A stretch of DNA of 64,000 nucleotides from a phage. The position numbers and the translations under genes are program-made. Positions 4,220 to 33,475 of this stretch are shown one piece after another; the stretch's first letter is position 1, and each line of letters begins with the position of its first letter. The notes below the pieces were generated by a model. That model searched no databases, was not told the origin of the DNA, and was given only the letters and a program-made list of their open reading frames with translations. The stretch lies in the sequence record PZ168832.1. The stretch is one strand, 5' to 3'.

Positions 4220-5302
4220 ATGGCTAGTTTAAGAGAAGAAGCAAAAATAATTGAAGAGTTTTTAACAGAACTCCAAAGAGGCATCCCAGAAGATGAGCGC
4301 GTCATGACGGTGTTTGCTCCTGAAGCAACGGTACAGACCGACGAGCGCGGCAAGAAGATCAACAGCAGCTTCTGGCCTAAGCCTTGGAAGTTGGGCAAGC
4401 CGCTCATGCAGCACCAAAACGGCTATGCGTGCATCAGTTCAATGCGTAAGTCTCCCAACCCAAAGACGGGTGAGATGCGATACTGGCGTACAGAGTCGGC
4501 CTTTGGTCACGGTATGGCGATGATGGTCGACGACATCGGCCACGGTAAAGGGTCCAAAGGCGATTTAGATTTGGAATTCTTTTTCGAGCGACTGAAGCCG
4601 ACTGTCATTGTCGAGACGTCACCGAACAACCACCAGCTTTGGTACTTCTTTAAAGAGCCGATTGACCATCTTATTCAGTTCAAAGCATTCCTTGGGTCTT
4701 TCGTAAACATGGTACTCAAGAAGGGCGGCGACAATACGATTAAAGACGTGACGCGCGTGGGCCGTGTTCCTGGGTGCATCAACAACAAGCGTGTGACTCA
4801 CGACGGCCCCTATAAATATGTCGATGAGAACGGCGACCCGTTCCGCTGCCGACTTGTCCATGCAGACTACTCCTTGCGCTACACCATCGAAGACATCTGT
4901 CAGGCATTTGGCTTTCACGTCGTTATGTCGCAAAAGCGTGAGATTCAAATTGACGTCGATGAATACAAGTACGATGCTGTTTGGTATAAAATAGCCCAGC
5001 AGATTCTAGCGCGCAACAAAATGGGTGAAGGGTCTGATGGCGACGTCATCGAGAACATGTCAGGCAAGTGCCGCATAATCTGTCCTTGGGGTGAAGAACA
5101 CACCAACGGCGACCCGTATGGCGCTTATTTTCGCGGCCCCATCCCTGGTGCTGAACATGAATTCGTTTTCGGTTGCGCTCACGACTGTCACCGGAAAGGG
5201 GAAGGCAAGAAAGGTTGGACCGCTTTTGTTGAAGCAGTAGTCATGCCTTATATTGAGAATCAACTTGATATGATAAATCGTCGCGCAGGTGGCATAAAAT
5301 AG
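4220..5302 (+). CDS. archaeo-eukaryotic-primase (AEP) type primase-polymerase
   Basis: Motifs MMVDDIGHG (DxD), SPNNHQLWYFF and GRVPGCINNK match the AEP/prim-pol pattern. C-terminal Cys/His cluster CRIICPWGEEH...GCAHDCH. Confidence 0.7.
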   Translation: MASLREEAKIIEEFLTELQRGIPEDERVMTVFAPEATVQTDERGKKINSSFWPKPWKLGKPLMQHQNGYACISSMRKSPNPKTGEMRYWRTESAFGHGMAMMVDDIGHGKGSKGDLDLEFFFERLKPTVIVETSPNNHQLWYFFKEPIDHLIQFKAFLGSFVNMVLKKGGDNTIKDVTRVGRVPGCINNKRVTHDGPYKYVDENGDPFRCRLVHADYSLRYTIEDICQAFGFHVVMSQKREIQIDVDEYKYDAVWYKIAQQILARNKMGEGSDGDVIENMSGKCRIICPWGEEHTNGDPYGAYFRGPIPGAEHEFVFGCAHDCHRKGEGKKGWTAFVEAVVMPYIENQLDMINRRAGGIK

Positions 5303-6611: not shown

Positions 6612-8282
6612 ATGTCAATTGAACATGACAATCTTCCAGAGGATACAGGTGATGAATTTGGTGCAATCTTTGACGAAATTCAAGACGCTGGTGTTTCAGA
6701 AGAAATGCAAGCAGCAGAGCAGCAAGGCACCAGAGCTAAAATAAGCCTTCAGCACAAGGCTGTTGAGAAAGATGCAGAGCGCATGGAATGCTACGGTGAA
6801 GAAGACTTGGTTGAAAGGGCACGTTTGCTCGCCTCACTTCAGGTAATCAAGTTCCCTCACTATAAACCGACGAAAGATGATTTTGTTCTTCAGGCGGACC
6901 GGACGAGTGACATGAACCGTTATGCGGTTTTCGACGCGTTGTTTGATAAGGGAAGCGGCGTTGTTCCATTCCCTCACAAAGATACTTTTCGTGGGCGCTT
7001 AGTCGACCATCGCGGCGAAACATTCACCGACCGGACGTTGGAAGTCACAGAGATAGTTGCCGCTGTCGACGCAGCAGGCCTGTCCAACCCAAACTCACGG
7101 CAGGTCGCTCAATCCTATAAGGAATGGGCCATGCGTTATCAGCGCGACGACCTGATGGACTTCTTCTACAAGAAGCTGCCTGAATGGGACGGTACTGCGC
7201 GCATTGAGAAATACCTTATCGAGCTATTCCGACCGTTCGATACAGAGTTAAACCGACAAATCGGTGTGTATTTTTGGCTATCGCTCTATAACCGCCTGAC
7301 CAACCCTGGCTGTCAAGCGCCAATATCCATTGCGCTCATCGGCGGCCAGAACGCAGGGAAGAGTTATTTTAGTAAGCTGCTTTGCGAAGCTATTATGAAC
7401 GACCGCCACGCAACACCGATTCCGTTGAACTTGGCCGCGCAAAACTTCAACCCGTTCTTGCGAGCTATTACGGGTCGCTCAATTATCGCGAACGTTGGCG
7501 AGATGACAGGCTTTAAAAAGGCCGACATCGAAAACATGAAAGCATTCCTGACTAAGACGGAAGATGACCTGGACTTCAAATTTGAAGACACGCAGGTTAA
7601 ACCACGCCAGTGGATTGCGATCATGGACGGCAACGAATACGCAGGCATGCAGCGTGACGACACGGGCAACCGTCGTGTTTACCCTATCTTTGTTGGCCAA
7701 CTTGCTGACAAGGACGGGCAACCGAACTGGTCTAAAGACTTCCAAGCTGACCTTTCCACTTTGAAAGAAGATGTTTGGCAGCTTATGGCTGAGTGCGCTG
7801 CGTGGATGGAGAAGCACGGCGAAGCAGGTTACAACGCCTTTGTTGGTGAAACGTCTCGTATGCTTACTGAGTTCAGCAAGAATGAAATGGAACGCGCTCG
7901 CGGCGTTATCCGTGATGAGATGGTCGACAACGACCTTGTTGAAGTCGTCATTACTGCGCCTTATGACCGACATCACAGCGGACGCTGGCACATCACCAGT
8001 GGTGCAATCGCTATGGGATTCAGAGCTAAGTGCGGCAAGTCGCCTTTCTCACGTACCCTTGCGCCGCACATGTCGAAACTTGGATTTGAGCCTGCAACCT
8101 ATCGCAACCAGCGTGGTTACTTTACGCCGCTGATTAAGAATGAAGCAGGGGAATACATTTCTGACTTGATGACTATCTTGGCGTATCTTATCCGCGACGA
8201 GTCTGACCCTGAAGATATTGAATTCTTGAAGAAGGTTATTGAACGCAAACGTTCTTTAGGAAGAGATAAGGATGAATTCTGA
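6612..8282 (+). CDS. VirE/D5-type primase-associated P-loop NTPase (putative replicative helicase)
   Basis: 556 aa. Walker A LIGGQNAGKSYFSKLL. Sits downstream of the AEP primase. AGGAGG SD. Confidence 0.75.
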   Translation: MSIEHDNLPEDTGDEFGAIFDEIQDAGVSEEMQAAEQQGTRAKISLQHKAVEKDAERMECYGEEDLVERARLLASLQVIKFPHYKPTKDDFVLQADRTSDMNRYAVFDALFDKGSGVVPFPHKDTFRGRLVDHRGETFTDRTLEVTEIVAAVDAAGLSNPNSRQVAQSYKEWAMRYQRDDLMDFFYKKLPEWDGTARIEKYLIELFRPFDTELNRQIGVYFWLSLYNRLTNPGCQAPISIALIGGQNAGKSYFSKLLCEAIMNDRHATPIPLNLAAQNFNPFLRAITGRSIIANVGEMTGFKKADIENMKAFLTKTEDDLDFKFEDTQVKPRQWIAIMDGNEYAGMQRDDTGNRRVYPIFVGQLADKDGQPNWSKDFQADLSTLKEDVWQLMAECAAWMEKHGEAGYNAFVGETSRMLTEFSKNEMERARGVIRDEMVDNDLVEVVITAPYDRHHSGRWHITSGAIAMGFRAKCGKSPFSRTLAPHMSKLGFEPATYRNQRGYFTPLIKNEAGEYISDLMTILAYLIRDESDPEDIEFLKKVIERKRSLGRDKDEF

Positions 8283-15797: not shown

Positions 15798-16500
15798 TAT
15801 ACGTATTTATGACAGTTTAATCCACTAAATAATACGGATAGAACAGTGAGGAAAATACAGCGGTGTATTTTAGTGTAAATATTGAATCAAAAATAAATAA
15901 TTATGGTGCTATTATATACGCAGATTGTTTGTAATTTATAGGATATTTTATCGTGGAGTATTGGCTAACGGTGCGTTAGCCGTGGGTCTTGGTGCTTGTG
16001 GTGTTGATGCTCAGAATTTTAATAATGTTTTAGTTTTAGTAATCGTAGTCAATGATGATACGTATAAGAAAATGAGAGTCACCCCTTCACAGGATATTGT
16101 ACCGTGGCCCTGTGGTGCGCCGCGCCTGGGATTGCTGGTATACACTGGTGCTATTTTGCCGCGAAGGCAGTCATTCATACGTATCATGACGTATCATTGG
16201 GCTATTGATTTATAAGGAAAAATACGCTGATACGGATGATACGGGTGCAAACATAATATATATAGAATTCCAGAAAATTAATTAACTCCATTTTGAATTA
16301 ATTTAAATTAATTTTTTTCTACATCCTCATACTTATACTAAACTTATATTTATACGTATCATCCGTAAGATATAAGTAAAAACAAAGACTTGCGGCAATA
16401 CGGATGATACGTCATGATACGCTTCAACCAGCCATCTGCGGCTAAGTCATTGATTTGCATAACAAGCGGCGAAAGGGATGGATTTCTTTTATACGTATCA
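15798..16500. repeat. iteron cluster A: CGTATCATCCGTA / ACGGATGATACG units in both orientations around an AT-rich core (about 16250-16350)
   Basis: Units read at 15798, 15832, 16052, 16178-16197, 16229-16243, 16352-16367, 16398-16422 and 16491. The core contains GAATTC...AAATTAATT...TTTTTTT. Confidence 0.8.
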
Positions 16501-16586
16501 AACAGTACACCACGCACCACGGTCCGCAATCCACGCAGCATTATGATTTGTGTACATTTATAGCCATAATGAACATCAATCTGCAC

Positions 16587-16615
16587 TTGAATATAATGTC
16601 CATCCATTGTATAAT
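16587..16615 (+). promoter_or_regulatory. sigma70-like promoter upstream of terS
   Basis: TTGAAT (16587-16592), 17 nt spacer, TATAAT (16610-16615). Confidence 0.6.
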
Positions 16616-16650
16616 TCACACTATTAATTTGCACTATGGGATTTTGCACT

Positions 16651-17124
16651 ATGAGTCAAGACTATGTAGCGATGCCTGAAGACTTTGAAGACCCGCGATT
16701 TGCAGAGCACAATCAGGCTTTATTCGATGAGTTCATTGACCTTGTTATTCAGGGCCATGACATGCGCGCAGCTTTTGCACTAGTATTTGGAATGGAAGTT
16801 GCAACGGATAACTACACTGGACAGCGAATCCTTTGCGCGCAACGCAACCCATACTACAAAATGCGCTTCAAAAAGCGTATGGAAGAGATGCCACTCAAGG
16901 ATTTGTGGAGCGTAAAAGGTGCAATTCACAATTTGGTTAAGCTTGTGCGTGATCCAGAAGTCGCGGCGTCAGCCAAGCTTAATGCTATTCGCGAACTGAA
17001 TATCATCTACGGCATCACGATGATTGATGAAAACGGCAATAGTAAAATGGGCCGTTCCATGGACGATTTCTACAAGGATTTTGGAGAGGCAGCCAAAGAA
17101 GGCGAGCAATTCTCCCGCCACTAG
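16651..17124 (+). CDS. terS: terminase small subunit-like protein
   Basis: 157 aa. The segment PEVAASAKLNAIRELNIIYGI resembles the conserved helix of small terminases. N-terminal helical region. The ORF-track ATG 16636 lies inside the motif doublet and ATG 16651 is preferred. Assignment is by resemblance only. Confidence 0.5.
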   Translation: MSQDYVAMPEDFEDPRFAEHNQALFDEFIDLVIQGHDMRAAFALVFGMEVATDNYTGQRILCAQRNPYYKMRFKKRMEEMPLKDLWSVKGAIHNLVKLVRDPEVAASAKLNAIRELNIIYGITMIDENGNSKMGRSMDDFYKDFGEAAKEGEQFSRH

Positions 17125-17143
17125 CCAATTTGCACTATAAAAC

Positions 17144-17177
17144 GGCCCTAGAACACATCTTCTCCACTTCTAGGGCC
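17144..17177 (-). terminator. 10-bp perfect hairpin; likely terminator of the leftward island operon (and possibly of terS)
   Basis: GGCCCTAGAA-14 nt-TTCTAGGGCC. On the minus strand it is followed by GTTTTATAG. There is no U-run on the plus side. Confidence 0.55.
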
Positions 17178-17238
17178 GTCGGTAATACGACGGGGAAGGT
17201 TGCAACCGTAAACGCGTTAGAAAGTGTATTATTATAAG

Positions 17239-17502
17239 TCATCTTTTAGTCACCTTACGTAACAATTTACGACCTTCAGCCGTCCAATCGAACGACTCCA
17301 CCAGCAGATTCGCACTATAACCTAAGATGATGCGCCCTTTCTCGTTATCGACCCGCCAACAAGTCTCGAATAGCATTCGATTTGCACTATTAACTATCGC
17401 CGCAACGCGCGTAGGGTAAACGCAATTTGCACTATGGTCATAAAGGGATAAGGTGCGACCACTTCCGATGGACAACGTAGCGATGAGAATGAGCGTATTC
17501 AT
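17239..17502 (-). CDS. hypothetical protein with a signal-peptide-like N-terminus
   Basis: 87 aa with GGTGG SD. MNTLILIATLSIGSG.... Contains three in-frame copies of the reverse-complemented 12-mer (HSAN, NSAN, YSAN). Confidence 0.45.
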   Translation of the reverse strand: MNTLILIATLSIGSGRTLSLYDHSANCVYPTRVAAIVNSANRMLFETCWRVDNEKGRIILGYSANLLVESFDWTAEGRKLLRKVTKR

Positions 17503-17552
17503 AAGCCACCAATTTGCACTATGAAAAGCGACCCCGAAGGGCCGCCATTCGA

Positions 17553-18179
17553 TTAGATAATCTGGAAGGTGTAGGACTTGTTGCCGAACTCGAAGTTCAA
17601 GCGCCCAGCTTCCTTAAGCTTCATGCGGAAGCGAATATGTTTGCTATCCGGTAAGCCCAGCGCGGCGAACGCTACGCGGACCGATTTGAACTCTCCTACA
17701 CCCTCGACCATAACGCCGTTACGGGTAAGACGCTTTTGCGCCACTTCCTTATTATCCCAACTTTTTGCAATGCCTTCGCTATTCGAACGGCGATGGGAAG
17801 GAGTTCCGTTTTGCACTACGCAATTTGCACTATCGTTTAAACCGCTCTTAACGAAGGCTTCATACTCTTCGTCGGTCATCGCGTCGAGTTCTTCCTGCGT
17901 CGGCTCGGCCTTTTTAACGACCGCACGCGCCTTATGCGTTTTTACATCGCTGGACACTTCCTCGCGCGGCTTCGCGTCGGGGATGGGCGATTCGTTGGAC
18001 GGCTCATCGAGCGCGTTTAAGGACTCGATTAACGCGATTACGCGAGTCTCGGCGGTCCGGCGGTCCGAAAACTTCTTAATCGGTTTTGAGCCGGAATTTG
18101 CATTATAGAATGCAACGAGGTCGGCGGTCTTAGTTGCGATAACGTCGCCGCTAGTCGAGAAGCGATTTAAGCTAACCAT
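17553..18179 (-). CDS. hypothetical protein (possible DNA-binding protein of the island)
   Basis: 208 aa with AGGAG SD. Has a protein-like composition, an acidic/Pro-rich linker and a basic C-terminal domain (KRLTRNGV...SVRVAFAALGLPDSKHIRFRMKLK). Confidence 0.6.
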   Translation of the reverse strand: MVSLNRFSTSGDVIATKTADLVAFYNANSGSKPIKKFSDRRTAETRVIALIESLNALDEPSNESPIPDAKPREEVSSDVKTHKARAVVKKAEPTQEELDAMTDEEYEAFVKSGLNDSANCVVQNGTPSHRRSNSEGIAKSWDNKEVAQKRLTRNGVMVEGVGEFKSVRVAFAALGLPDSKHIRFRMKLKEAGRLNFEFGNKSYTFQII

Positions 18180-18259
18180 AATAAACTCCTATTTGTTAGG
18201 GCGCTAGGCGCGAAAGAATTTTATTAAAGCGCCGCGCACGACGCTCTAAAAATCCTCTC

Positions 18260-18544
18260 TTACGCTTCGACGAGGGAGAAGGTTTCAAATTCTTCTTCTC
18301 CCATAACGAGTAAAATATTCCCGATTTCGACCGCTTCGAAGAAGTATCCGTTAACGTTTACTTCGAATGATTCGCGGTCCGATTCCGGTAACGCCGCGTA
18401 AAGTTTAAAAGCCTCGGCGACCGTTACCCCACCCGCTTCAATAGTTTGATCTACGTTCGCGGCGTAGACTTCGGATAAATTTTGTTTTACGCCGTAGTTC
18501 TCGACGATAGCGTTACGGATAGAAGAAACGTTAAGAATAGCCAT
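18260..18544 (-). CDS. acidic small protein, island paralogue A1
   Basis: 94 aa with AGGAG SD. Paralogous to 19176-19466 (EVYAANVDQTIE / SVYLSNVDATIE; VNVNGYFFEAVEIG / VTINGFVYTITEIG). Confidence 0.6.
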   Translation of the reverse strand: MAILNVSSIRNAIVENYGVKQNLSEVYAANVDQTIEAGGVTVAEAFKLYAALPESDRESFEVNVNGYFFEAVEIGNILLVMGEEEFETFSLVEA

Positions 18545-18559
18545 TTTAAACTCCTAGTT

Positions 18560-18596
18560 GGGATAGGCGTTAACGACCTATTCGTTAACTCATCCC
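18560..18596 (-). other. conserved structured 5' leader (copy for A1)
   Basis: On the transcript: outer stem GGGAT/ATCCC and inner stem GTTAACGA/TCGTTAAC with loop ATAGG, just upstream of ACTAGGAG. Confidence 0.5.
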
Positions 18597-18612
18597 GTCC
18601 CGATATGAGTAC

Positions 18613-18640
18613 ATTATAATATAGTGTAGAAAAAAGTAAA
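18613..18640 (-). promoter_or_regulatory. island promoter P-L1
   Basis: TTTACT, 16 nt spacer containing TTTCTACACT, then TATAAT (minus strand). Confidence 0.6.
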
Positions 18641-18684
18641 GCACTTTTTCGATAAAAATGCGATAAATTATTTTATCTTTTTTC

Positions 18685-18712
18685 TTTACTTCTTCGTACA
18701 CTCGCGTATACT
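18685..18712 (+). promoter_or_regulatory. island promoter P-L2
   Basis: TTTACT, 16 nt spacer containing TTCGTACACT, then TATACT. Followed by GTTTATATCGAGACGGG, which is shared with the other copies. Confidence 0.6.
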
Positions 18713-18767
18713 TGTTTATATCGAGACGGGCGATGGCCTTTCTTCTACTAGCATCGGGAGCTTTATT

Positions 18768-19070
18768 ATGACTACTTTGATCTCTTCCATCCTTACTTAC
18801 GACGAAGACCGCTTAACCGTTCGCTCTCTTATCGCCGCCGTTAACGCGGAACTAGAATCTAGCGCCATTAAGGTCCGCGCGGTCGCCTTCATCGGCCTTT
18901 CCTTCGACGATATGAAGTACGCCGAACGTAGCGCCATCCGCTTCACGAAGACCGACGACGAAGCCGTTACCCTTATCGAGACGGTTACGCCGCGCGACGA
19001 AGCGTTAATTATCATCGAGTATATCGATATAGAAGGTGATAAAGCTTATAAATATTTTATCGCAAAATAA
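18768..19070 (+). CDS. acidic small protein, island gene B (possible distant paralogue of A1/A2)
   Basis: 100 aa with GGGAG SD. N-terminus MTTLISSI resembles MITLSAI and MAILNVSSI. Confidence 0.6.
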   Translation: MTTLISSILTYDEDRLTVRSLIAAVNAELESSAIKVRAVAFIGLSFDDMKYAERSAIRFTKTDDEAVTLIETVTPRDEALIIIEYIDIEGDKAYKYFIAK

Positions 19071-19081
19071 CGAAAAATTGC

Positions 19082-19110
19082 TTTACTTATTCGTACACTA
19101 AGACTATAAT
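19082..19110 (+). promoter_or_regulatory. island promoter P-L3
   Basis: TTTACT, 17 nt spacer containing TTCGTACACT, then TATAAT. Confidence 0.6.
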
Positions 19111-19121
19111 GTTTATATCGA

Positions 19122-19154
19122 GAGGGATGAGGAAGCGAATAGGTCGCTACCCTC
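19122..19154 (+). other. conserved structured 5' leader (copy for A2)
   Basis: Outer stem GAGGG/CCCTC and inner stem (A)GCGA/TCGC(T) with the same loop ATAGG, upstream of ACTAGGAG. Confidence 0.5.
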
Positions 19155-19175
19155 CCGACTAACTAGGAGAATATT

Positions 19176-19466
19176 ATGATTACTTTATCCGCTATCCGCG
19201 CCGCTCGCGTCGAAACTTCCGAAAACTCTAATGTATTTGGCGAAACCTTAGAGAGCGTTTATCTCTCTAACGTAGACGCGACTATCGAGTCTATTTATGA
19301 ACCGATCAACTTCCTCGACCTTTACAAGTATCGCGACGAGGACGTAGCATCCTACCGCGTAACGATTAACGGCTTCGTCTATACGATTACCGAAATCGGC
19401 GGCGAATATCTCGCGATCCCGCAACTCGGCGGAGAAGTGACTTATTTTAAAATCGTAAGCCTTTAA
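19176..19466 (+). CDS. acidic small protein, island paralogue A2
   Basis: 96 aa with AGGAG SD. Paralogue of 18260-18544. Confidence 0.6.
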   Translation: MITLSAIRAARVETSENSNVFGETLESVYLSNVDATIESIYEPINFLDLYKYRDEDVASYRVTINGFVYTITEIGGEYLAIPQLGGEVTYFKIVSL

Positions 19467-19477
19467 GGAGAAGAAAA

Positions 19478-19687
19478 ATGACTAATATGAATAACTCTCT
19501 TAACGCGCGCGCCCATCGTACCGCCGTCATCGATATGTTCCGCGAACTTAAGGAATTATGCGATAATATGAACGCGATGTTATCCATCGGCGGCTGGGGA
19601 TACGAAGAAGAGGTTAAATACGCGGTTATGCGTCGTAAGCGCGATAACGTCCTGGGACAAATTAAACGCGCCGGATTATTCCTTTAA
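19478..19687 (+). CDS. hypothetical small protein, island gene C
   Basis: 69 aa with AAGGAG SD. Confidence 0.55.
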   Translation: MTNMNNSLNARAHRTAVIDMFRELKELCDNMNAMLSIGGWGYEEEVKYAVMRRKRDNVLGQIKRAGLFL

Positions 19688-19713
19688 TTATAATTACCCA
19701 CCGTTACTAATAG

Positions 19714-19738
19714 GCCGCGCTTAGTCGCGGCTTTTCTT
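19714..19738 (+). terminator. rho-independent terminator of the rightward island operon
   Basis: GCCGCG-CTTAGT-CGCGGC followed by TTTTCTT. Confidence 0.7.
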
Positions 19739-19857
19739 CGTCCCTATTTCGATGCGCTTCTCCGCGAAAACTCCTTTATCCTTCCCTTCGTCGTCGCATA
19801 ATCTTCTTCGAGATGCTCCTTAGTTCGCATAACAGGTATTACGTTAAATGGAGAACA

Positions 19858-19931
19858 TCGCGTAAGTCCTTGTTTTATATAGACACCTATATCGGACCGT
19901 TAGGGCGGGTCGCGTAAGTCGTTGTTTTATA
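19858..19931 (+). repeat. two 22-bp direct repeats TCGCGTAAGTC(C/G)TTGTTTTATA
   Basis: Copies at 19858-19879 and 19910-19931, 52 bp apart, in non-coding DNA. Confidence 0.8.
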
Positions 19932-20056
19932 AAGGCGCAAAACTTTCCCTTCGTTCCGAACTAAAACGAGGAATATGCCGACCCTTCGTCCGAAAATAGT
20001 ACGCATGCGAAATTACATGCATCTAGAATAATCCCCACCGATATTATCCTACACGC

Positions 20057-20119
20057 AATCATTCGCTTTCGAATCATTATGCTTCATATTGTTATGCGTC
20101 AAATCATTCGCTTTCGAAT
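20057..20119 (+). repeat. two 18-bp direct repeats AATCATTCGCTTTCGAAT
   Basis: Copies at 20057-20074 and 20102-20119. Each contains the dyad ATTCG-CTTT-CGAAT. Confidence 0.8.
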
Positions 20120-20332
20120 TGTAACGCTGGAAACTGTAACGGCTATTGATTATTGCGTTCGTGTGGTTTTTATGGCATGGGTCTTTTGGTGCGTTTTGGT
20201 ACTTGATGGAATTTGCGGTACACTAATCAAAATACGACACATTTGGTCCACTAACTTTTCAAAGAAAAAGTCCCAGACAGTACCGTACTATTTTGTACCC
20301 ACAGTAAATTTGCAGTACACTCCTGCGCGGCA

Positions 20333-21883: not shown

Positions 21884-21890
21884 GAGTGAA

Positions 21891-25269: not shown

Positions 25270-25484
25270 CAGTCTTCACCTTGAGATTCAAGACAAGTAA
25301 GAACAAGCCATGTCATCGGAAGAATCAAAACCAGAGAAATAAGGGACCAGATGGACCAGCACAAGATGACAGACTTGAATGTGTGAACGTCGCCAAACGC
25401 AGCAGTGAAACAAAATCCCATCACGAAAGCAAGCGCGGTGGAGTGGTTATCAATGGCTTTGATGGCACGGTCGATGAGTTTCAT
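25269..25484 (-). CDS. small multi-TM membrane protein (holin-like topology)
   Basis: 71 aa with GGAGGT SD. Two or three hydrophobic segments and an acidic C-terminus ESQGED. Confidence 0.5.
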   Translation of the reverse strand: MKLIDRAIKAIDNHSTALAFVMGFCFTAAFGDVHTFKSVILCWSIWSLISLVLILPMTWLVLTCLESQGED

Positions 25485-25573
25485 ATTACCTCCGGTTTTG
25501 AGTTAATATGATTATAACGCAGAGCTTCAGAAAGGCAAACTTTTTGTGAATTTATGCCGTCCATGGCAAATGA

Positions 25574-25804
25574 TTAGTGAGAAGACACGACTAATGTGCC
25601 GCTTCCTTTCGCGAAAATCTCAACACCTGGCGGGATTGTGACCGTGCCAACCACTGCGATTCCGATCAACTTGTCATCGGCTTTTTCTTCGAAACAGATC
25701 TCTGCGGCACCGCCGCGAACTTGAATAAGTGCGCCTGATACGTTTTCAGCAACAGAAAGAACGGAAGTGTAAGATGGAGTGAGTTGAATATTTACTAGGG
25801 CCAT
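25574..25804 (-). CDS. hypothetical protein
   Basis: 76 aa with AGGAG SD. Confidence 0.55.
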   Translation of the reverse strand: MALVNIQLTPSYTSVLSVAENVSGALIQVRGGAAEICFEEKADDKLIGIAVVGTVTIPPGVEIFAKGSGTLVVSSH

Positions 25805-25818
25805 GATTTACTCCTGAT

Positions 25819-25845
25819 AAAAAAATGGCCAGAAAGAATCTGGCC
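25819..25845 (-). terminator. terminator-like hairpin located inside the 5' leader of gene 25574-25804
   Basis: Minus strand GGCCAG-ATTCTTT-CTGGCC-A-TTTTTTT, between the predicted promoter (25886-25914) and the SD. Confidence 0.55.
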
Positions 25846-25885
25846 GAAAAGATCACCCTTTATCCACTACTAAGCTGGAATCATA

Positions 25886-25914
25886 ATTTTACTTGATATA
25901 GCTGTCGCAAGCAA
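25886..25914 (-). promoter_or_regulatory. sigma70-like promoter for the leftward accessory block
   Basis: Minus strand TTGCTT, 17 nt spacer, TAAAAT. Overlaps the terL promoter back-to-back. Confidence 0.5.
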
Positions 25915-25922
25915 ACTATAAT
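25893..25922 (+). promoter_or_regulatory. sigma70-like promoter for terL
   Basis: TTGATA, 18 nt spacer, TATAAT. The -10 element ends at 25922, directly abutting ATG 25923. Confidence 0.55.
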
Positions 25923-27383: not shown

Positions 27384-27386
27384 CAA

Positions 27387-27626
27387 TTAAAGCATTCCGT
27401 GCTGAAGGTCGAGTTTTCTTGCGGCAAACGACCTGGCACGGAATCGCTTACCCGCCCTTACTGCCTGTCGAATCTTCTTTTGCAAACACTTACGATCAAA
27501 ATCGTTGCGGTCGACGGCTTCGAGTAAATCACGACGCAAAGCACCCAGTGTCGACTTTTCAGAGACTTCAACGCCCAGCGCCGCTGCAACGTCTTTCAAA
27601 ACATCGAGTTCGGTTAAAGTTCTCAT
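27387..27626 (-). CDS. hypothetical basic protein
   Basis: 79 aa with AAGGGGA SD. 4-nt overlap with the upstream gene. Confidence 0.5.
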   Translation of the reverse strand: MRTLTELDVLKDVAAALGVEVSEKSTLGALRRDLLEAVDRNDFDRKCLQKKIRQAVRAGKRFRARSFAARKLDLQHGML

Positions 27627-28039
27627 TTGATAATCCCCTTGATGTCTGATTCTGCCATAAAGATTGGAGTTCCGCCGCCAGGAACAATCGAGCGCGTGAC
27701 TTTATCAAACATATCGTTTTCTTCAACTTGAATACGATAGAATTTATTTTTGGATGAAGATGGGCACAATCCCATAAATTTGCCGATTCCGCGAACGCAT
27801 TCATCTTCAAAGTATACTGTTTCACCTTGAATGGAGTCGATGTTGTCTACTGGATAGACTTTGCGACCCAACAACCACTCATCCAAAGTAGCTTGCAAGA
27901 CGTTTCGCGCATCTAAAATCCACGGGTCAATAATAGCACCTTCATATCGCGCAGCAGTGGCTTTTGCCAGCTCTTCATATTCGCATACGTTTACCACTTC
28001 GCCTTGATGAAGGACGACAAATACAATTGTTGTGCTCAT
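27623..28039 (-). CDS. hypothetical protein
   Basis: 138 aa with AAGGAG SD. Confidence 0.55.
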   Translation of the reverse strand: MSTTIVFVVLHQGEVVNVCEYEELAKATAARYEGAIIDPWILDARNVLQATLDEWLLGRKVYPVDNIDSIQGETVYFEDECVRGIGKFMGLCPSSSKNKFYRIQVEENDMFDKVTRSIVPGGGTPIFMAESDIKGIIK

Positions 28040-28134
28040 TTCAATCTCCTTTCGTTTGGTTAACTAAAATATAACTCAAAATGATACAAAAGCAAAATAT
28101 TTTATGAACTATTTATGATTACTATACATATCAT

Positions 28135-28163
28135 TTGCTTACAAACACATGAATATTTATAAT
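28135..28163 (+). promoter_or_regulatory. sigma70-like promoter for the portal gene
   Basis: TTGCTT, 17 nt spacer, TATAAT. Confidence 0.6.
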
Positions 28164-28201
28164 ATAGATTGATTCCCTTTCACTGTCAGGTGGCGTTAAC
28201 A

Positions 28202-30577
28202 ATGAAAATTCTTGGCATAAAACTCTGGGAGAAGACGCAACCAGAAGCCGAACCAGCGGAGATGCCGCCAGGCGACCCATTGGCACCGTTTGAACGCCTT
28301 GAAAGGCGCGGCAGCGGTCAACGCTGGGAAAAGACTGAAAGCAATCGACCGACCTTTAAAACGGTTGATGACTTCCCTTTATATGAGCCTGATATTAATG
28401 GCGATGGTGTTGCAATCATAAAAGGTCGTTCAGTCGATTCCGCAACAGTATCCAAAAAGGTTATGGATAATGCCTTAAAGAACATCAGTTCAGAAGGGCA
28501 AGTCAACCCATACACAGTACCTATTCAACTTCAAAACTGGTATTTGTCACAGTCATTTATCGGCTATCAAGCTTGTGCCATCATCGCACAGCATTGGCTG
28601 GTGAACAAGGCTTGCTCTATGGTAGGCCGTGATGCAGTGCGTAAAGGTTGGGAAGTAAAATCAAGCTCTGAATCAGAATTGTCTGTGCAGGCCAGCGAAC
28701 GCTTAAAGCAAATTGATAAAGAATTTAATATCAAAGAGCACTTAGTTGAAGCCGAACGATTCAAAAATATTTTTGGTATCCGCGTCATCATATTTGATGT
28801 GCGTAGCGATGATCCAGAATACTACAGCAAACCTTTTAACATTGATGGTGTGACAAAGGGGTCTTATAAGGGAATCATTCAGGTTGACCCTTATTGGATG
28901 ATGCCATTTTTGACGTCTGAAAACACCGCCGACCCTGCATCACAGCACTTCTATGATCCAGAATACTGGGTGATCAGCGGACAACGTTATCATCGAAGCC
29001 ACCTGATCATTTTGCGAAACGATGAGCCAGCTGATATTCTCAAGCCGACTTATATTTACGGCGGCATCCCTCTGACTCAGCAGATTTATGAACGCATCTA
29101 TGCCGCTGAACGTACCGCTAACGAAGCGCCATTGCTGGCGATGTCCAAGCGTACAACCACGCTGCGGACCGACGTTGACAAGGCGATTGCCAATGAGCGG
29201 TCTTTTGCTGAACGTCTGATGATGTGGATTAAGTACCGCGACAACTATGCAGTCAAAGTGCTTGGTCAAAAAGAAGAGATGGACCAGTTCGACATCAACT
29301 TGTCAGACTTCGACAGCATCATCATGAACCAGTACCAGCTGGTGGCCGCAATCGCAAAAGTTCCGTCGACCAAACTTCTTGGGACTTCGCCAAAAGGCTT
29401 TAACGCCACTGGTGAATTTGAGATGGTCAGCTATCACGAAGAGTTGGAAACGTGCCAGCAGCATGACCTGACAAAAATTCTCGACCGCCATTACAAAATC
29501 CTTCTCAAATCAGAAGGGGTGGAAGTCGACGTTAAGGTTGCATGGGAACCAGTTGGCTCACTTACTGCTACTCAACTTGCAGAAATCAACGACAAGCGAG
29601 CTAACACTGGCAAAACTCTCATTGATGCTGGCGTCATTTCTCCTGATGAAGAGCGCGACCGCATCAAAGACGACAAAAACAGCGGCTACAACCGTCTGCC
29701 GGAAGACGCAGCAGAAGAAACCCCAGGGATGTCTCCAGAGAATATGGCATTGCTTGGCAAGTCTGCTGGTGAAGTCCTGCAAGGTAAGGCCGATATTGAA
29801 CAGGCGAAAGTTGATGTCGTTAAGATGGGCGGCCAGTTCTATAGCGAAACAGGTATTATGCCAGAGGGTGCCGCGCGTGGTGAGTTGGCGGAAAACCCTG
29901 ACAAAGCGCCTGTCGAAATCAACATGGACGATACCGATGATGAATCAAGCCATCAGGTTGATGTCCTAACGCAGTTGAAAGAAGGGCTGGAGGGTATTGC
30001 GGATTACTACCTGAAAGAAGGTCAGGATGTGGATTTTGACCCTCAAAAAGATTCACGGTCGGTGCAACCGTCTACCCTTCCAAGCGTTAAAGGACACGTC
30101 GTCAACTTACGCCACAACGTGGGTAAAATGGACGCAGCATCATTACCTAAGATGAAGTTGCACGGAATGATTCTTGGCATTGAGAATCCGCGAAACAGCA
30201 TTCGTAGAGGAAACAGCCTTGACGGTGAATGGGCCGTGAAGATGCCGCACCACTACGGATTCATCAAGGGCACCAAGGGCGCAGACGGTGATGAAGTCGA
30301 CTGCTTTGTGGGTCCAAATCTGAAGTCGCCGAAAGTCTTTATCGTGAACCAAAACGATAACTACTCTGGCGAGTTTGATGAACACAAGTGTATGCTTGGA
30401 TTCGATTCAGCAGAAGAAGCGAAAGAAGCTTATCAAGCATCATTTGGTAACGGTTGGAACGGATTCGACTCAATCCACGAATTAGATGTGAACTCATTCA
30501 AGGAGTGGTTGAAGGGTGATTGCTCTCAAGCATACGGAGCACTCAATAATCCTACTAATTCACCGAAGCAAGGTTGA
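28202..30577 (+). CDS. portal protein with a C-terminal inorganic-pyrophosphatase-like domain
   Basis: 791 aa from ATG 28202 (AGGTGG SD). Assigned as portal by size and by position after terL and before the Mu-F-like gene. The C-terminus HHYGFIKGTKGADGDEVDCFVGP resembles the family-I PPase core. Confidence 0.75.
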   Translation: MKILGIKLWEKTQPEAEPAEMPPGDPLAPFERLERRGSGQRWEKTESNRPTFKTVDDFPLYEPDINGDGVAIIKGRSVDSATVSKKVMDNALKNISSEGQVNPYTVPIQLQNWYLSQSFIGYQACAIIAQHWLVNKACSMVGRDAVRKGWEVKSSSESELSVQASERLKQIDKEFNIKEHLVEAERFKNIFGIRVIIFDVRSDDPEYYSKPFNIDGVTKGSYKGIIQVDPYWMMPFLTSENTADPASQHFYDPEYWVISGQRYHRSHLIILRNDEPADILKPTYIYGGIPLTQQIYERIYAAERTANEAPLLAMSKRTTTLRTDVDKAIANERSFAERLMMWIKYRDNYAVKVLGQKEEMDQFDINLSDFDSIIMNQYQLVAAIAKVPSTKLLGTSPKGFNATGEFEMVSYHEELETCQQHDLTKILDRHYKILLKSEGVEVDVKVAWEPVGSLTATQLAEINDKRANTGKTLIDAGVISPDEERDRIKDDKNSGYNRLPEDAAEETPGMSPENMALLGKSAGEVLQGKADIEQAKVDVVKMGGQFYSETGIMPEGAARGELAENPDKAPVEINMDDTDDESSHQVDVLTQLKEGLEGIADYYLKEGQDVDFDPQKDSRSVQPSTLPSVKGHVVNLRHNVGKMDAASLPKMKLHGMILGIENPRNSIRRGNSLDGEWAVKMPHHYGFIKGTKGADGDEVDCFVGPNLKSPKVFIVNQNDNYSGEFDEHKCMLGFDSAEEAKEAYQASFGNGWNGFDSIHELDVNSFKEWLKGDCSQAYGALNNPTNSPKQG

Positions 30578-30578
30578 T

Positions 30579-31430
30579 ATGGCTTTTAAAGCTTCGAAAA
30601 AACGTGAACGCCGCTCACCCGATAGAATCGGACGCGGCAGTCCGATAATCCCATCAAACGCTATTGCGATGGCCTACCGTCGTGAGATGAAAGGTCTTTG
30701 CTATGCGATGATTGATGACTATCAGGCAGGCATTTCAGAATGGCTTGACAAGAAGCAGGTGCAGAAGTTTTTTGCGCAAGACTCTGCTGATTCGACATTC
30801 CAGACCCTTATGAAACGGCTGCAACTGAAATGGGCAAAGGCGTTTGCACGTGTTGGGTCGAAGATTGCCGCTGATTTTATCAAATCGGTCGAAAAGGGTG
30901 CCACTTCTGCTACATTCGCAAGCCTTAAGTCCGCAGGCATAGAAGCGCCAAAGGCCACATATAACAAATTCGTTGAGAACACTCTTAGAACAAGCGAGAA
31001 GTTTAACACGACTCTAGTGACTAAGGTCGGCGAGGATATTCACAACAGGGTGTACGAAGCGGTGATGCTTTCGCTGACTTCGCCAGACCCAGCACAGCAA
31101 GGCGCATCCGGCATTCAGGCGGCATTAAGAAATGTCAAACACTTCTCTGCAAAACGCGTAGACCTTATCGCCAAAGACCAAACGAGCAAACTTTATTGCG
31201 TATTAAGTGATGAAAGGATGCGACAGAATGGCGTGGAGGAATTTGAGTGGGCGCATTCAGGAGCAGGCAAAGAGCCGCGAATATCACATGAGCACGTCGA
31301 CGGCATGAGATTCAAGCTTGATGACAAACGCTTATGGGAAGTAGGTGGAGAACTTAAGTTCAAAAAGGGTGACATCGGTCCTCCTGGATGGGCAATACAC
31401 TGCAAGTGCAGAAAAATACCAATTATCTGA
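30579..31430 (+). CDS. head morphogenesis protein (Mu F / SPP1 gp7 family)
   Basis: Internal ATG (MAFKASKKRE...). The C-terminal HEHVDGMRF...GPPGWAIHCKCRKIP matches the Mu-F signature. Confidence 0.8.
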   Translation: MAFKASKKRERRSPDRIGRGSPIIPSNAIAMAYRREMKGLCYAMIDDYQAGISEWLDKKQVQKFFAQDSADSTFQTLMKRLQLKWAKAFARVGSKIAADFIKSVEKGATSATFASLKSAGIEAPKATYNKFVENTLRTSEKFNTTLVTKVGEDIHNRVYEAVMLSLTSPDPAQQGASGIQAALRNVKHFSAKRVDLIAKDQTSKLYCVLSDERMRQNGVEEFEWAHSGAGKEPRISHEHVDGMRFKLDDKRLWEVGGELKFKKGDIGPPGWAIHCKCRKIPII

Positions 31431-31502
31431 ATTAAGATAGTTGTAAATAAGCGCAATTTAAACTGTGCAATTATTAATTTGATATGAACTAAAGAGGAAG
31501 TT

Positions 31503-31640
31503 ATGCAAAAGATTATTCAGTCACGTTATGTTAAAGTGCGAAATATTAATTGCAACTCTTTGCTTTCTTGGAAATGGGCTGTTTATGACTCAATGCTGAT
31601 TGGCGTTTTAGTTGCTGGAGTGCTTTTTAATATTCACTGA
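31503..31640 (+). CDS. hypothetical small membrane protein (45 aa)
   Basis: Below the ORF cutoff. AAAGAGGAAG SD. ...WKWAVYDSMLIGVLVAGVLFNIH. Confidence 0.4.
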   Translation: MQKIIQSRYVKVRNINCNSLLSWKWAVYDSMLIGVLVAGVLFNIH

Positions 31641-31672
31641 ATCGCCTGGCAATGGATTGCCGCAGGATTTCA

Positions 31673-31950
31673 CGCGTATAATGACGTATCATCCGTATCA
31701 AGTAAGTAGTTGTTTTCAAAAGAATCTTACGGATGATACGGATGATACGCGTTGCCGCGATACTTTATAGGAATTCAAATAAATTAATTTAAAATTATAT
31801 ATCTAATTTAATTTTATTTTTTTATAAACTCTTATATATGAAAAGTATCCGTATCATCCGTATCATCCGTAGCACACCAGTGATAGCGCGGCTTATACAC
31901 CGATACGGATAAAAATACGCCTCATTTTATCCGTATCATCCGTATCACAC
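31673..31950. repeat. iteron cluster B, colinear with cluster A
   Basis: ATGACGTATCATCCGTATCA (31681), TTACGGATGATACGGATGATACGCG (31728), AT-rich core 31765-31840 with GAATTC...AAATTAATTTAAA...TTTTTTT, GTATCCGTATCATCCGTATCATCCGTAG (31845), CGATACGGATAAAAATACG (31901), ATCCGTATCATCCGTATCAC (31929). Confidence 0.85.
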
Positions 31951-32004
31951 TAATTAAGGCGCGGCTATATCGGTTGTTATACATATTCAAACCATAATTA
32001 TTGT

Positions 32005-32033
32005 TTGCCTAAGTTTTTTTCATTAGATATAAT
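32005..32033 (+). promoter_or_regulatory. sigma70-like promoter for the scaffold-capsid operon
   Basis: TTGCCT, 17 nt spacer, TATAAT. Confidence 0.6.
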
Positions 32034-32062
32034 ACACAATACTTATTTGAGGGTGGATGCGA

Positions 32063-33475
32063 ATGCAAACGGCACGCGAAATTGACAAAAATGGATTCTT
32101 GACGATTGTGGGTTGTCCCATTTCGTCATTTGGCATTTTTGATTATTCTGCAGGTCAGGTTGGACTTGATGGTGATCCGAATCGCATCGTAAAAGTTTAT
32201 CGCCCAGAGTCAGCGGTGAAAGACCCCGAAGCGATAGATTCATTCAAAAATATCCCTTTCATCGACAATCACGAAATGCTTTCTGGATTCGAAGGTGATG
32301 AGGATAACACAGCACCCGAAGAGTATGGAGTTGATGGCGTTCTGACTGGCAATGTTTATTATGACAAGCCATGGATGCGCGGCGACCTTAAAGTGTTTAG
32401 CCGTCGTCTGAAGAAGGCCATTGATTCTGGAAAGGTTGACTTGTCTTTGGGCTATGACTGTGAATTCATCATACAGTCTGGAGAGTTTGACGGGCAGCCG
32501 TATGAAGTGGTGCAGACAACTCTTCGCGGCAACCACATTGCTCTCGTGGACGTTGGTCGAGTACCAGGTGCACGGGTGCTGGATGGTCGTTGCTTTGACC
32601 ATCTTTGTTTGACGACTGTAACACCATCCAACGAGGATTTAGACATGCCAAAACCGTTAAAAGGTAAAGCGCGTGATAATGCTGTTGAACAGCTGAAATC
32701 ACTGATCCCTGCGCTCGAACAATTTCTGAATGAAGAGAGTACTGAAGCTGCTCATCAGGACGAAGTTGAAGTGAAAGCAGAAGAGAAGGACTCAACCGAA
32801 AATCGTGAAGAAGTAATGGTTGATCCAGAAGTCAAGGCAGAAGCAGAAGAAACCCCAGAAGGTGAAGAGAAGTTTGAAGTTGAAACTGAATCTAACGCTG
32901 GCGGCGAACTTCCGCAATTGATCAGCCAAATCGAAGCACTTATTGCAAAACTGAAAGGTGGCGCGGTAGGTGATGAAGAAGAAGTTGAAGCCGAAGTCAA
33001 AGACGAAGAAGTTGAAGTCAAGGCTGAAGATGTATCACCTTGCGACAAAGCTGAAGATGTGGTTAGCGGCCTGCAAAACAGCAACGTAAAGGGGGCTTCG
33101 GTCGAAAAAGATGACAAACCGACAAAAGCGGCGAAAGCGTCGCCAGGTCCAGCAAAAGGGGAACACTCAATGGCATCTGATTCAGCAGTTGCTGCTTTCT
33201 ACGCTGATTCTGCTCGTAAGAATAGCCTCTACCAGCGCCTGTCTAAAGTTGTTGGTGCCTTTGATCATGCAACTATGGACTCCAAGTCCGTAGCGAAATA
33301 TGGCGCTAAAAAGTTAGGCTTGAAGTGCGTTGATGGTGCTGAGTTTGACGTGGTGGATAATTATCTGCGTGGCGTTGAACACGGTCAAAAACAGCGTGTA
33401 GTCGCAAAACAAAAGGCCGCTGCGGATTCTGCAGCAACTGACGAAGCATTTGAAGCTTGGTTGAAAGGGGAATAA
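32063..33475 (+). CDS. prohead scaffold / protease-like protein
   Basis: Lies immediately upstream of the capsid genes. Globular N-terminal half and a highly acidic repetitive centre (EEVEAEVKDEEVEVKAEDV). GAGGGTGG SD favours ATG 32063. Confidence 0.6.
   Translation: MQTAREIDKNGFLTIVGCPISSFGIFDYSAGQVGLDGDPNRIVKVYRPESAVKDPEAIDSFKNIPFIDNHEMLSGFEGDEDNTAPEEYGVDGVLTGNVYYDKPWMRGDLKVFSRRLKKAIDSGKVDLSLGYDCEFIIQSGEFDGQPYEVVQTTLRGNHIALVDVGRVPGARVLDGRCFDHLCLTTVTPSNEDLDMPKPLKGKARDNAVEQLKSLIPALEQFLNEESTEAAHQDEVEVKAEEKDSTENREEVMVDPEVKAEAEETPEGEEKFEVETESNAGGELPQLISQIEALIAKLKGGAVGDEEEVEAEVKDEEVEVKAEDVSPCDKAEDVVSGLQNSNVKGASVEKDDKPTKAAKASPGPAKGEHSMASDSAVAAFYADSARKNSLYQRLSKVVGAFDHATMDSKSVAKYGAKKLGLKCVDGAEFDVVDNYLRGVEHGQKQRVVAKQKAAADSAATDEAFEAWLKGE

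What the first reader, a model, noticed from the sequence alone, without database searches (positions are those of the whole stretch)
31673..31950. Iteron/AT-rich module B interrupts the head operon and is colinear with module A 15.5 kb away
A second copy of the same architecture lies between the Mu-F-like gene (plus a 45-aa ORF) and the scaffold gene. In order:
- Forward units ATGACGTATCATCCGTATCA (31681).
- Reverse tandem TTACGGATGATACGGATGATACGCG (31728).
- AT-rich core 31765-31840.
- Forward tandem with a 9-bp period, GTATCCGTATCATCCGTATCATCCGTAG (31845).
- Reverse-like CGATACGGATAAAAATACG (31901).
- Forward ATCCGTATCATCCGTATCAC (31929).

The order forward, reverse, AT core, forward, reverse, forward matches module A, and the orientation is the same. 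The AT cores also share GAATTC...AAATTAATT...AATTTAAA...TTTTTTT. The two loci are therefore an imperfect direct repeat of about 300 bp.

Module B ends about 55 bp upstream of a TTGCCT-N17-TATAAT promoter for the scaffold-capsid operon, just as module A precedes the terS promoter. This recurrence in front of two morphogenesis operons favours a shared regulatory or initiation function. It also creates a substrate for recombination across the intervening 15.5 kb.
Basis: partly seen in the sequence, partly recalled or inferred. Interest (0 to 1): 0.6.

Follow-up and report, generated by a model that had tools for sequence, protein, structure and literature searches.

The report
Second copy of a phage replication-origin-like module
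The repeat-studded, AT-rich gap in front of the head genes is real and is one of two matching copies of what looks like a replication origin, and the other copy also holds the exact spot where the packaged phage DNA begins.

Summary
CGTATCA occurs 24 times in the window against 6.4 expected, 16 of them in two clusters. Module A is 16179-16501 and module B is 31674-31948. Each has about 10-12 nine-bp units (consensus CCGTATCAT) in mirror-image arrays around a ~100-bp core of 16-18% GC.

The window is a Wifcevirus-like E. coli myophage of the PB1-like supergroup. The two-module layout recurs in at least five lineages. Each lineage has its own repeat unit, and that unit is shared only between its own A and B.

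The layout matches the SaPI-type origin: short iterons in opposite orientation on both sides of a central AT-rich stretch. The phage encodes a matching initiator at 6612-8282, whose best structural match is SaPI Rep1 (7PDS). Module A lies directly downstream of that gene in five relatives.

Best reading, confidence about 0.5: A and B are two Rep-dependent origins. No binding or replication was tested.

Unexpectedly, the virion DNA end lies inside A's core. It is the left end of the direct terminal repeat at 16290|16291, the same nucleotide in three phages, and the pac-like read-start site in Pseudomonas phage JG024. No end is known at B.

The promoter link is not, and the orientation claim cannot be decided from the window alone.

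The parts
31673..31950 (.). Module B as a whole: 12 nine-bp units in mirror-image arrays around an AT-rich core
31674..31701 (+). B left outer array: three forward units (GCGTATAAT, ACGTATCAT, CCGTATCAA)
31724..31750 (-). B left inner array: three reverse units. It contains the left arm (31728-31749) of the perfect 22-nt inverted repeat.
31753..31846 (.). B AT-rich core, 16% GC, candidate unwinding region. Almost invariant among seven Wifcevirus genomes.
31849..31875 (+). B right inner array: three forward units. It overlaps the right arm (31850-31871) of the 22-nt inverted repeat.
31900..31948 (.). B right outer units: one degenerate reverse unit (31900-31908) and two forward units (31931-31948)
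31659..31965 (.). Span of the mirrored pentamer: GCCGC at 31659 and 31754 (left of the core), GCGGC at 31888 and 31961 (right of the core)
32005..32033 (+). Sigma-70-like promoter TTGCCT-17-TATAAT for the protease / scaffold / capsid genes. It is next to the module but not shown to be part of it.
   Evidence: equivalent promoters in relatives
31503..31640 (+). 45-aa ORF for a small hydrophobic protein that bounds module B on the left. Conserved across lineages.
32057..33475 (+). Head maturation protease gene that bounds module B on the right
16179..16501 (.). Module A, the paralogue of B. Units: + at 16179, 16189; - at 16227, 16236; + at 16354, 16363; - at 16404, 16414; weak + at 16493. The core 16247-16353 is 18% GC.
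16290..16291 (+). Position matching the left physical end of the virion DNA, i.e. the start of the direct terminal repeat: ...TTAACTCC|ATTTT...
16291..20186 (+). Direct terminal repeat, inferred by homology with Mansfield and WFH. The WFC repeat ends 81 bp further on.
16636..17124 (+). Small terminase subunit gene, homologue of the phage E217 TerS decamer (PDB 7UXE)
6612..8282 (+). Rep-like self-loading SF3 helicase with a predicted C-terminal winged-helix domain. Candidate reader of the units.
4220..5302 (+). RepB-type primase gene upstream of the Rep-like gene, the counterpart of the SaPI pri gene

Best explanation
Module B is a second copy of a SaPI-type replication origin. Its paralogue, module A, is the copy that in most relatives sits directly downstream of the initiator gene.

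Proposed mechanism (inferred, not shown):
1. The phage's Rep-like hexameric SF3 helicase (window 6612-8282) reads the 9-bp units with its C-terminal winged-helix domain.
2. One hexamer assembles on each arm.
3. The ~100-bp AT-rich core melts and the helicases load themselves.
4. The RepB-type primase (4220-5302) and the phage polymerase then start synthesis in both directions.

Shown here:
- the architecture of the modules;
- the A-B paralogy;
- the lineage-specific units shared by A and B;
- the homology and fold of the Rep-like protein;
- the rep-module A gene order in relatives;
- the position of the virion DNA end inside A's core.

Inferred:
- that Rep binds the units;
- that replication starts at either module;
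- that B fires as an origin rather than only binding Rep.

Module A has a further, packaging-related role that B appears to lack.
For: 1. Architecture. SaPI origins have 6-12 short iterons and an AT-rich centre with half of the iterons on each side. At least two on each side point in opposite directions, and one Rep hexamer is thought to load on each side (PMC9371898). B has 12 units and A has 10, mirrored about cores of 16-18% GC.

2. Initiator.
- Window 6612-8282 carries VapE-like and DUF5906 domains.
- It matches PDB 7PDS at E 4e-11 as a single sequence and 2.5e-24 as a profile.
- An AlphaFold model (pLDDT 84.8) shows a helix-helix-helix-hairpin winged-helix pattern at residues 436-504.
- Its best fold match by far is 7PDS, the SaPI Rep1-dsDNA complex: E 8e-17 over about 480 columns.

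3. Gene order. Module A lies about 100-235 bp downstream of this gene's stop codon in R26, MyoSmar, BcepF1 and UViG_3300044683. In L147 it lies within the 1 kb after one extra ORF. A RepB-type primase gene lies upstream. This is the pri-rep-ori order of SaPIs.

4. Co-variation. A and B of one genome share 23-27 nine-mers. Other windows of the same genome share 1.3-1.8 on average (maximum 7-11), and modules of other lineages share 0-5. The units differ by lineage:
- Wifcevirus: CCGTATCAT
- MyoSmar: TACTTTTCGTTTTT
- Pbunavirus: GGTAATTTGG
- UViG_3300044683: GATAGTTG
- BcepF1: CTTAGTTA
- L147: ATCCGCAAGA

5. The C-terminal part of Rep is its least conserved part.

6. Constraint. B is more conserved than the neighbouring coding sequence. 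All 297 Pbunavirus records contain both modules.
Against: - No binding, melting or replication data exist for any of these phages.
- B is far from the rep gene. In this window even A is about 8 kb from it.
- The units are 9 bp with a 7-bp core, against 5-6 nt in SaPIs.
- The virion DNA end lies in A's core in three genera, which points to terminase.
- TerS is encoded right next to A in every lineage examined.
- Cumulative GC skew shows no turn at either module. A published skew analysis places Pbunavirus minima inside the polymerase gene (PMC12390725).
- The attempt to decide between Rep and TerS by co-variation with unit changes was inconclusive.
Confidence: 0.5

Rival explanations
1. Both modules are terminase assembly sites. 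The TerS ring binds the units. At A it positions TerL to cut in the core, making the pac site or terminal-repeat end. B is an uncut paralogue that binds TerS for another purpose, such as pairing with A or tuning head-gene expression.
For: The virion DNA end maps in A's core:
- Mansfield, WFH and WFC records start at the same nucleotide.
- MyoSmar's repeat boundary at 3559 lies within the module.
- In JG024, 36 of 161 long reads start at 59,376, which is the core of its module A, and a matching pac restriction fragment was seen.
- The vB3530 record starts 1 nt from that position.

terS lies 170-450 bp downstream of A in all lineages. TerS is a homologue of a decameric ring with helix-turn-helix motifs, PDB 7UXE. 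Repeats flanking the cut are known from P1 pac and SPP1 pacL/pacR (own knowledge).
Against: - A conserved second, uncut pac-like site has no established precedent.
- No end is reported at B. JG024 shows a single start peak, and none of the 29 Wifcevirus records starts there.
- The ACTCC|ATTTT cut context falls in a gap in B in the A-B alignment.
- E217 TerS showed no appreciable DNA binding in vitro, according to the review PMC9611059.
- Units in opposite orientations do not fit simple wrapping of DNA around one ring.
- The Rep-origin match explains more of the features.
Confidence: 0.2
2. A is the origin. B is not an origin but an auxiliary Rep-binding site that acts on A by looping or handcuffing, like P4 crr or the copy-control iterons of plasmids.
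For: Two loci share the same short units 15-29 kb apart. Only A keeps the rep-adjacent position.
Against: - B has the complete origin architecture, including the AT core and mirrored arms.
- B is better conserved than A. In Pbunavirus, 295 of 297 records cover at least 80% of B, against 166 of 297 for A.
- In Wifcevirus the left arm of A exists in three versions.
- P4 crr consists of direct repeats without a melting core (own knowledge).
Confidence: 0.12
3. The units are operator or activator sites for a phage transcription factor that times the two sigma-70-type morphogenesis promoters, those of terS and of the protease-capsid operon.
For: Both modules lie upstream of strong consensus promoters. 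The same holds in MyoSmar, R26 and XcP1.
Against: - The distance from the units to the promoter is not fixed: 56 bp at B, about 150 bp at A, and about 450 bp to the terS start in R26.
- No unit overlaps a -35 or -10 hexamer.
- A 300-bp mirrored array around a 100-bp AT core is not a typical operator.
- XcP1 keeps the promoter but has no clear repeats.
Confidence: 0.06

Closest known systems
SaPI replication origins with Rep self-loading helicases (SaPI1, SaPIbov1, SaPI5; PMC9371898 and references 28 and 29 therein)
   Same: - Six to twelve short iterons.
- An AT-rich centre with half of the iterons on each side, in opposite orientation.
- An element-specific iteron sequence.
- An initiator that is an SF3 helicase with a C-terminal winged-helix domain.
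- The gene order pri-rep-ori (module A in relatives).
   Different: - This is a virulent 68-kb myophage of Gram-negative hosts.
- The units are 9 bp in tandem pairs or triplets, not 5-6 nt.
- There are two copies per genome.
- One copy contains the virion DNA end.
- A second, lineage-independent mirrored motif (GCCGC / GCGGC) is present.
Phage P4 ori and crr with the alpha primase-helicase (own knowledge)
   Same: Short 8-bp iterons in both orientations at two loci some kb apart. They are read by the C-terminal domain of an SF3 primase-helicase.
   Different: crr is a pair of 120-bp direct repeats, whereas B is a full mirror-image copy of A. The spacing here is 15-29 kb rather than 4.5 kb.
P1 pac and SPP1 pacL-pacC-pacR packaging sites (own knowledge; SPP1 also in PMC9611059)
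   Same: Repeated short elements lie on both sides of the place where the first terminase cut is made, next to the terS gene. This fits module A.
   Different: Those sites are single-copy. B has no known end. The protein that binds the units here is unknown.
SPP1 oriL / oriR, two origins bound by one initiator, G38P (own knowledge)
   Same: Two dispersed origin copies share the same repeats and an AT-rich region. One of them lies outside the replication gene cluster.
   Different: The initiator family is different, and neither site is linked to the genome end.
T4 gene 16 / gene 19 pac-like sites and Black's terminase synapsis model (own knowledge)
   Same: Two homologous short sequences a few kb apart lie in the packaging-head gene region. 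Recombination between them has been documented.
   Different: The T4 sites are 24-bp sequences inside genes, with no arrays or AT core. The model itself remains unproven.

Membership tests
SaPI-type Rep/iteron origin | 6-12 short iterons | tested here: met
   12 units in B and 10 in A. Core CGTA is invariant.
SaPI-type Rep/iteron origin | AT-rich region at the centre, with about half of the iterons on each side | tested here: met
   The B core 31753-31846 is 16% GC, with 6 units on each side. The A core is 18% GC, with 4 units on the left and 4-5 on the right.
SaPI-type Rep/iteron origin | At least two iterons on each side pointing in opposite directions | tested here: met
   The inner arrays are mirror images. 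The inverted repeat across the core is a perfect 22 nt in B and 13 nt in A.
SaPI-type Rep/iteron origin | [quoted passage not shown] | tested here: inconclusive
   Met for module A in R26, MyoSmar, BcepF1, UViG_3300044683 and L147. In this window A is about 8 kb from rep. Module B is never next to rep.
SaPI-type Rep/iteron origin | A Rep-family SF3 helicase with a C-terminal winged-helix domain is encoded | tested here: met
   7PDS at E 4e-11 (single sequence) and 2.5e-24 (profile). Model pLDDT 84.8 with a winged-helix pattern at residues 436-504. Foldseek top hit 7PDS at E 8e-17 over about 480 columns.
SaPI-type Rep/iteron origin | Rep binds the iterons, melts the core, and replication starts there | not testable with these tools
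   Needs gel-shift or footprinting assays, a plasmid origin assay, or marker-frequency sequencing.
pac / terminase initiation site | A physical DNA end or packaging-series start maps in the site | tested here: not met
   This verdict is for module B. No end is known there. JG024 has a single read-start peak and no Wifcevirus record starts there. One Pbunavirus record, E215, is opened in B's core, with no stated basis. For module A the feature is met.
pac / terminase initiation site | Located within or next to terS | tested here: not met
   B is 15.5 kb from terS. A is 215 bp upstream of it.
pac / terminase initiation site | Specific binding by TerS | not testable with these tools
   The literature reports no appreciable DNA binding by the homologous E217 TerS. 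The DNA that was tested is not known to me.
Plasmid/lambda-type iteron origin | 17-22-bp direct iterons plus DnaA boxes | tested here: not met
   The units are 9 bp in mirrored arrays. There is no exact DnaA box, and 1-mismatch hits are close to the background rate.
P4 ori/crr pair | The second site consists of direct repeats that carry ori-type iterons | tested here: not met
   B is a mirror-image module with its own AT core.
Promoter operator / upstream activating site | Sites overlap the promoter or lie at a fixed distance from it | tested here: not met
   Distances are 56 bp at B, about 150 bp at A, and about 450 bp to the terS start in R26.
Known RNA family | Match to an Rfam covariance model | tested here: not met
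   No match with E <= 1 in 15800-32300.

The most novel reading that the evidence does not exclude
Origin and packaging start are one element. The Rep-opened AT core of module A would be the substrate on which terminase makes its first cut. In the genera that form terminal repeats, synthesis started from A would duplicate the 3.7-3.9-kb repeat. Module B would be the origin-only copy. This would be a direct mechanical coupling of replication initiation and DNA packaging in a large phage group that includes therapeutic Pbunaviruses.
Probability: 0.2. Interest if true: 0.8.

Novelty: new variant of a known kind. Interest (0 to 1): 0.6.

Why it matters
PB1-like phages include the Pseudomonas Pbunaviruses used in therapy and the very fast E. 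coli Wifceviruses.

For these phages neither the replication origin nor the packaging site has been defined:
- Reports on Pbunavirus genome ends contradict each other (PMC12390725).
- The solved TerS of E217 did not bind DNA in vitro (PMC9611059).

This analysis names two concrete ~300-bp DNA elements and two candidate proteins, Rep and TerS, that can be tested directly. It shows that one element carries the DNA end in three genera.

It also tells phage engineers which 'empty' intergenic regions should not be disrupted. It identifies several annotated 'hypothetical proteins' drawn over module A that are probably not genes.

Tried and rejected
- Rfam scan of 15800-32300: nothing found.
- DnaA and IHF consensus scans: no enrichment.
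- Copies of module B in 5,426 E. coli genomes, as a test for satellites carrying it: none.
- Exact 16-mer scan of IMG/VR: multiple hits only in Wifcevirus contigs. Single hits elsewhere are at about the chance level.
- The box GCCGCGNCTGGG as a possible dispersed phage promoter: only one exact copy in the window.
- GC skew: it shows no turn at either module and gives no origin signal there.
- Rep versus TerS co-variation with unit changes, using two intermediate relatives (L146, which keeps the unit, and L147, which has changed it): both proteins diverge, so the test was inconclusive.
- Transcription-start data for phage 14-1: the supplement is not held.
- The E217 terminase paper is not held.
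- The SCUT-S1 record does not start at its predicted pac site, so the 'AT-rich region' that paper refers to could not be identified.
- E215's record start inside B's core: no stated basis in the paper, and it may be an assembly break at the repeats.
- XcP1 and some other relatives keep the intergenic gap and the promoter but show no clear repeats.

Full report
**1. The observation**

The only correction is that the reverse tandem starts at 31727.

- CGTATCA occurs 24 times in the window against 6.44 +/- 2.64 in shuffles. Sixteen copies lie in two clusters, 16180-16500 and 31685-31947.
- A 16-mer made of two units, allowing up to 3 mismatches, gives 9 hits against 0.29 expected. All 9 are in the two modules.
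- The 22 units give the consensus (C/A)CGTATCAT, with CGTA invariant.
- In B the order is three forward units, three reverse units, a 94-bp core of 16% GC, three forward units, one reverse unit, two forward units.
- A perfect 22-nt inverted repeat brackets the B core.
- Module A has the same plan. Nested perfect inverted repeats of 18 nt and 13 nt surround a 107-bp core of 18% GC.
- A and B align with score 95, against 21 +/- 2.7 for shuffles. The reverse-complement alignment scores 102. The modules are therefore pseudo-palindromes, and the window alone cannot fix their relative orientation.
- The promoter TTGCCT-17-TATAAT at 32005-32033 is confirmed.

**2. What the window is**

The window is a Wifcevirus-like E. 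coli myophage. Relatives include FEC19, WFH, WFC, Mansfield and Bas98-101. The genus belongs to the PB1-like supergroup.

**3. The pair of modules is conserved, with lineage-specific units**

Relatives keep a 260-565-bp non-coding gap between the small ORFs that follow the head-morphogenesis gene and the head protease gene.

- In MyoSmar, R26, BcepF1, a 68.9-kb metagenomic contig and several others, this gap has the same plan but a different unit.
- In each complete genome examined, the unit recurs at only one other place, just upstream of terS.
- A and B of one genome share 23-27 nine-mers. Other windows of the same genome share 1.3-1.8 on average, with a maximum of 7-11. Modules of other lineages share 0-5.
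- More distant 40-48-kb relatives show no such repeats, and most have no comparable gap.
- All 297 Pbunavirus records contain both modules.
- Within Wifcevirus, B is more conserved than the coding sequence next to it.
- The left arm of A exists in three versions. The Mansfield-type version is 58/63 identical to B's left arm, a sign of exchange between A and B.

**4. A second motif that does not depend on lineage**

GCCGC occurs only to the left of the core and GCGGC only to the right. This holds in all eight modules of four lineages: 20:1 against 0:24, Fisher P = 7e-12. The counts are 3-8 per module, against 0.1-0.7 in local shuffles. What reads this motif is unknown.

**5. Module A holds the end of the virion DNA**

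- The Mansfield record starts with a 3,673-bp direct terminal repeat called by PhageTerm (PMC6753283).
- The Mansfield, WFH and WFC records all start at ...TTAACTCC|ATTTT. This corresponds to window 16290|16291, about 9 bp from the dyad centre of A.
- The right end of the repeat is at the same position in Mansfield and WFH, although their unit genome lengths differ. The repeat is therefore defined by sequence.
- MyoSmar's repeat boundary at 3559 lies within its module A.
- In Pbunavirus JG024, 36 of 161 long reads start at 59,376 +/- 5, and a matching pac restriction fragment was seen (PMC10913387). That coordinate is in the core of JG024's module A.
- The vB3530 record starts 1 nt from that position.
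- No end is known at B.

**6. What the modules most resemble**

ORF 6612-8282 is the candidate initiator.

- It carries VapE-like and DUF5906 domains.
- It matches PDB 7PDS at E 4e-11 as a single sequence and 2.5e-24 as a profile.
- An AlphaFold model built on 32 homologues has pLDDT 84.8 and shows a winged-helix pattern at residues 436-504.
- Its best fold match is 7PDS, the SaPI Rep1-dsDNA complex, at E 8e-17 over about 480 columns. The next hits score around 1e-7.

The paper on these Reps (PMC9371898) describes the SaPI replicon as follows:
- The gene order is pri, rep, then the origin immediately downstream of rep.
- The origin has 6-12 short iterons around a central AT-rich region.
- At least two iterons on each side point in opposite directions.
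- The iterons are read by the C-terminal winged-helix domain of Rep.
- One hexamer is thought to load on each side.

Modules A and B match this description. Module A lies about 100-235 bp downstream of the Rep-like gene in R26, MyoSmar, BcepF1 and UViG_3300044683. In L147 it lies after one extra ORF. A RepB-type primase gene lies upstream. In Wifcevirus, about 8 kb of small ORFs separate rep from A. The C-terminal part of Rep is its least conserved part.

**7. Verdict on mechanism**

Best-supported reading, about 0.5: A and B are two Rep-dependent origins. Binding and firing are inferred, not shown.

Rivals:
- The units are TerS sites, and B is an uncut pac paralogue (0.2).
- B is an auxiliary Rep site rather than an origin (0.12).
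- The units are promoter operators (0.06).

The position of the DNA end inside A's core is the main fact the origin model does not explain by itself. Either pac simply lies next to terS in the same intergenic region, or origin opening and terminase cutting are coupled. The second option is the novel case, at about 0.2.

**8. What is already known**

- I found no description of these modules in the searchable literature.
- A 2025 paper calls the reports on Pbunavirus termini contradictory. It places GC-skew minima inside the polymerase gene (PMC12390725).
- A review states that E217 TerS did not bind DNA in vitro and that packaging might be T4-like (PMC9611059).

SaPI-type origins are a known kind of element. 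New here are their presence as a conserved pair in virulent myophages of Gram-negative hosts and the fact that one copy coincides with the packaging start.

Noticed in passing
window 31430-31503: The window lacks the 306-aa gene (Mansfield gp026, annotated as a head or tail fibre protein in relatives) that lies between the MuF-like gene and the 45-aa ORF in relatives. All 29 database Wifceviruses align only from window 31485 onwards.
   Followed up: partly
L141 (BcepF1 NC_009015) 20046-20513, minus strand: An unannotated terS homologue (tblastn E 9e-25 to the window TerS). Small annotated plus-strand ORFs, roughly .058-.060, overlap it.
   Followed up: partly
L009 5656-6315 (R26 gp47); L010 1706-2287 (JG024 gp77); L001 125-283 (Mansfield gp001); L006 3497-3862 (MyoSmar gp007): Annotated 'hypothetical proteins' are drawn across module A. 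They are probably not genes.
   Followed up: no
window 16111-16131; L002 8021-8045; L006 3345-3370 and 3634-3659: A box left of module A, ATGGTGCGCCGCGACTGGG, is identical in Mansfield and MyoSmar even though their proteins are only about 50% identical. In MyoSmar it is one arm of a 26-nt inverted repeat that brackets the whole module. The window version is GTGGTGCGCCGCGCCTGGG.
   Followed up: partly
window 16100-16560 and 31640-31990, and the equivalent modules in MyoSmar, R26 and BcepF1: GCCGC occurs only left of the core and GCGGC only right of it: 20:1 against 0:24 over eight modules. This mirrored motif does not depend on lineage, and its reader is unknown.
   Followed up: partly
window 20186 and 20267: The right end of the direct terminal repeat is at the same position in Mansfield and WFH (window 20186) and 81 bp further on in WFC (20267). 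No repeat units occur there.
   Followed up: partly
L144 (E215 NC_042080) position 1: This Pbunavirus record is opened inside the core of module B. The paper gives no basis for the choice of start. It could be an assembly break at the repeats or a real minor end.
   Followed up: partly
window 28169-30577: The portal protein carries a C-terminal inorganic-pyrophosphatase-like domain (PF18823, E 3e-46).
   Followed up: no
window 31503-31640; L018, L023 and L025 just upstream of their module B: The small hydrophobic protein encoded just before module B is conserved across lineages. It carries a ...W(R/K)W... motif followed by a hydrophobic stretch.
   Followed up: no
L145/L143 (vB3530) and window 16100-16290: In both Pbunavirus and Wifcevirus the left arm of module A is mosaic, while B is stable. 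The left arm of A in vB3530 shares the segment GCCGCAAAAGTATA with the left arm of B in R26.
   Followed up: partly
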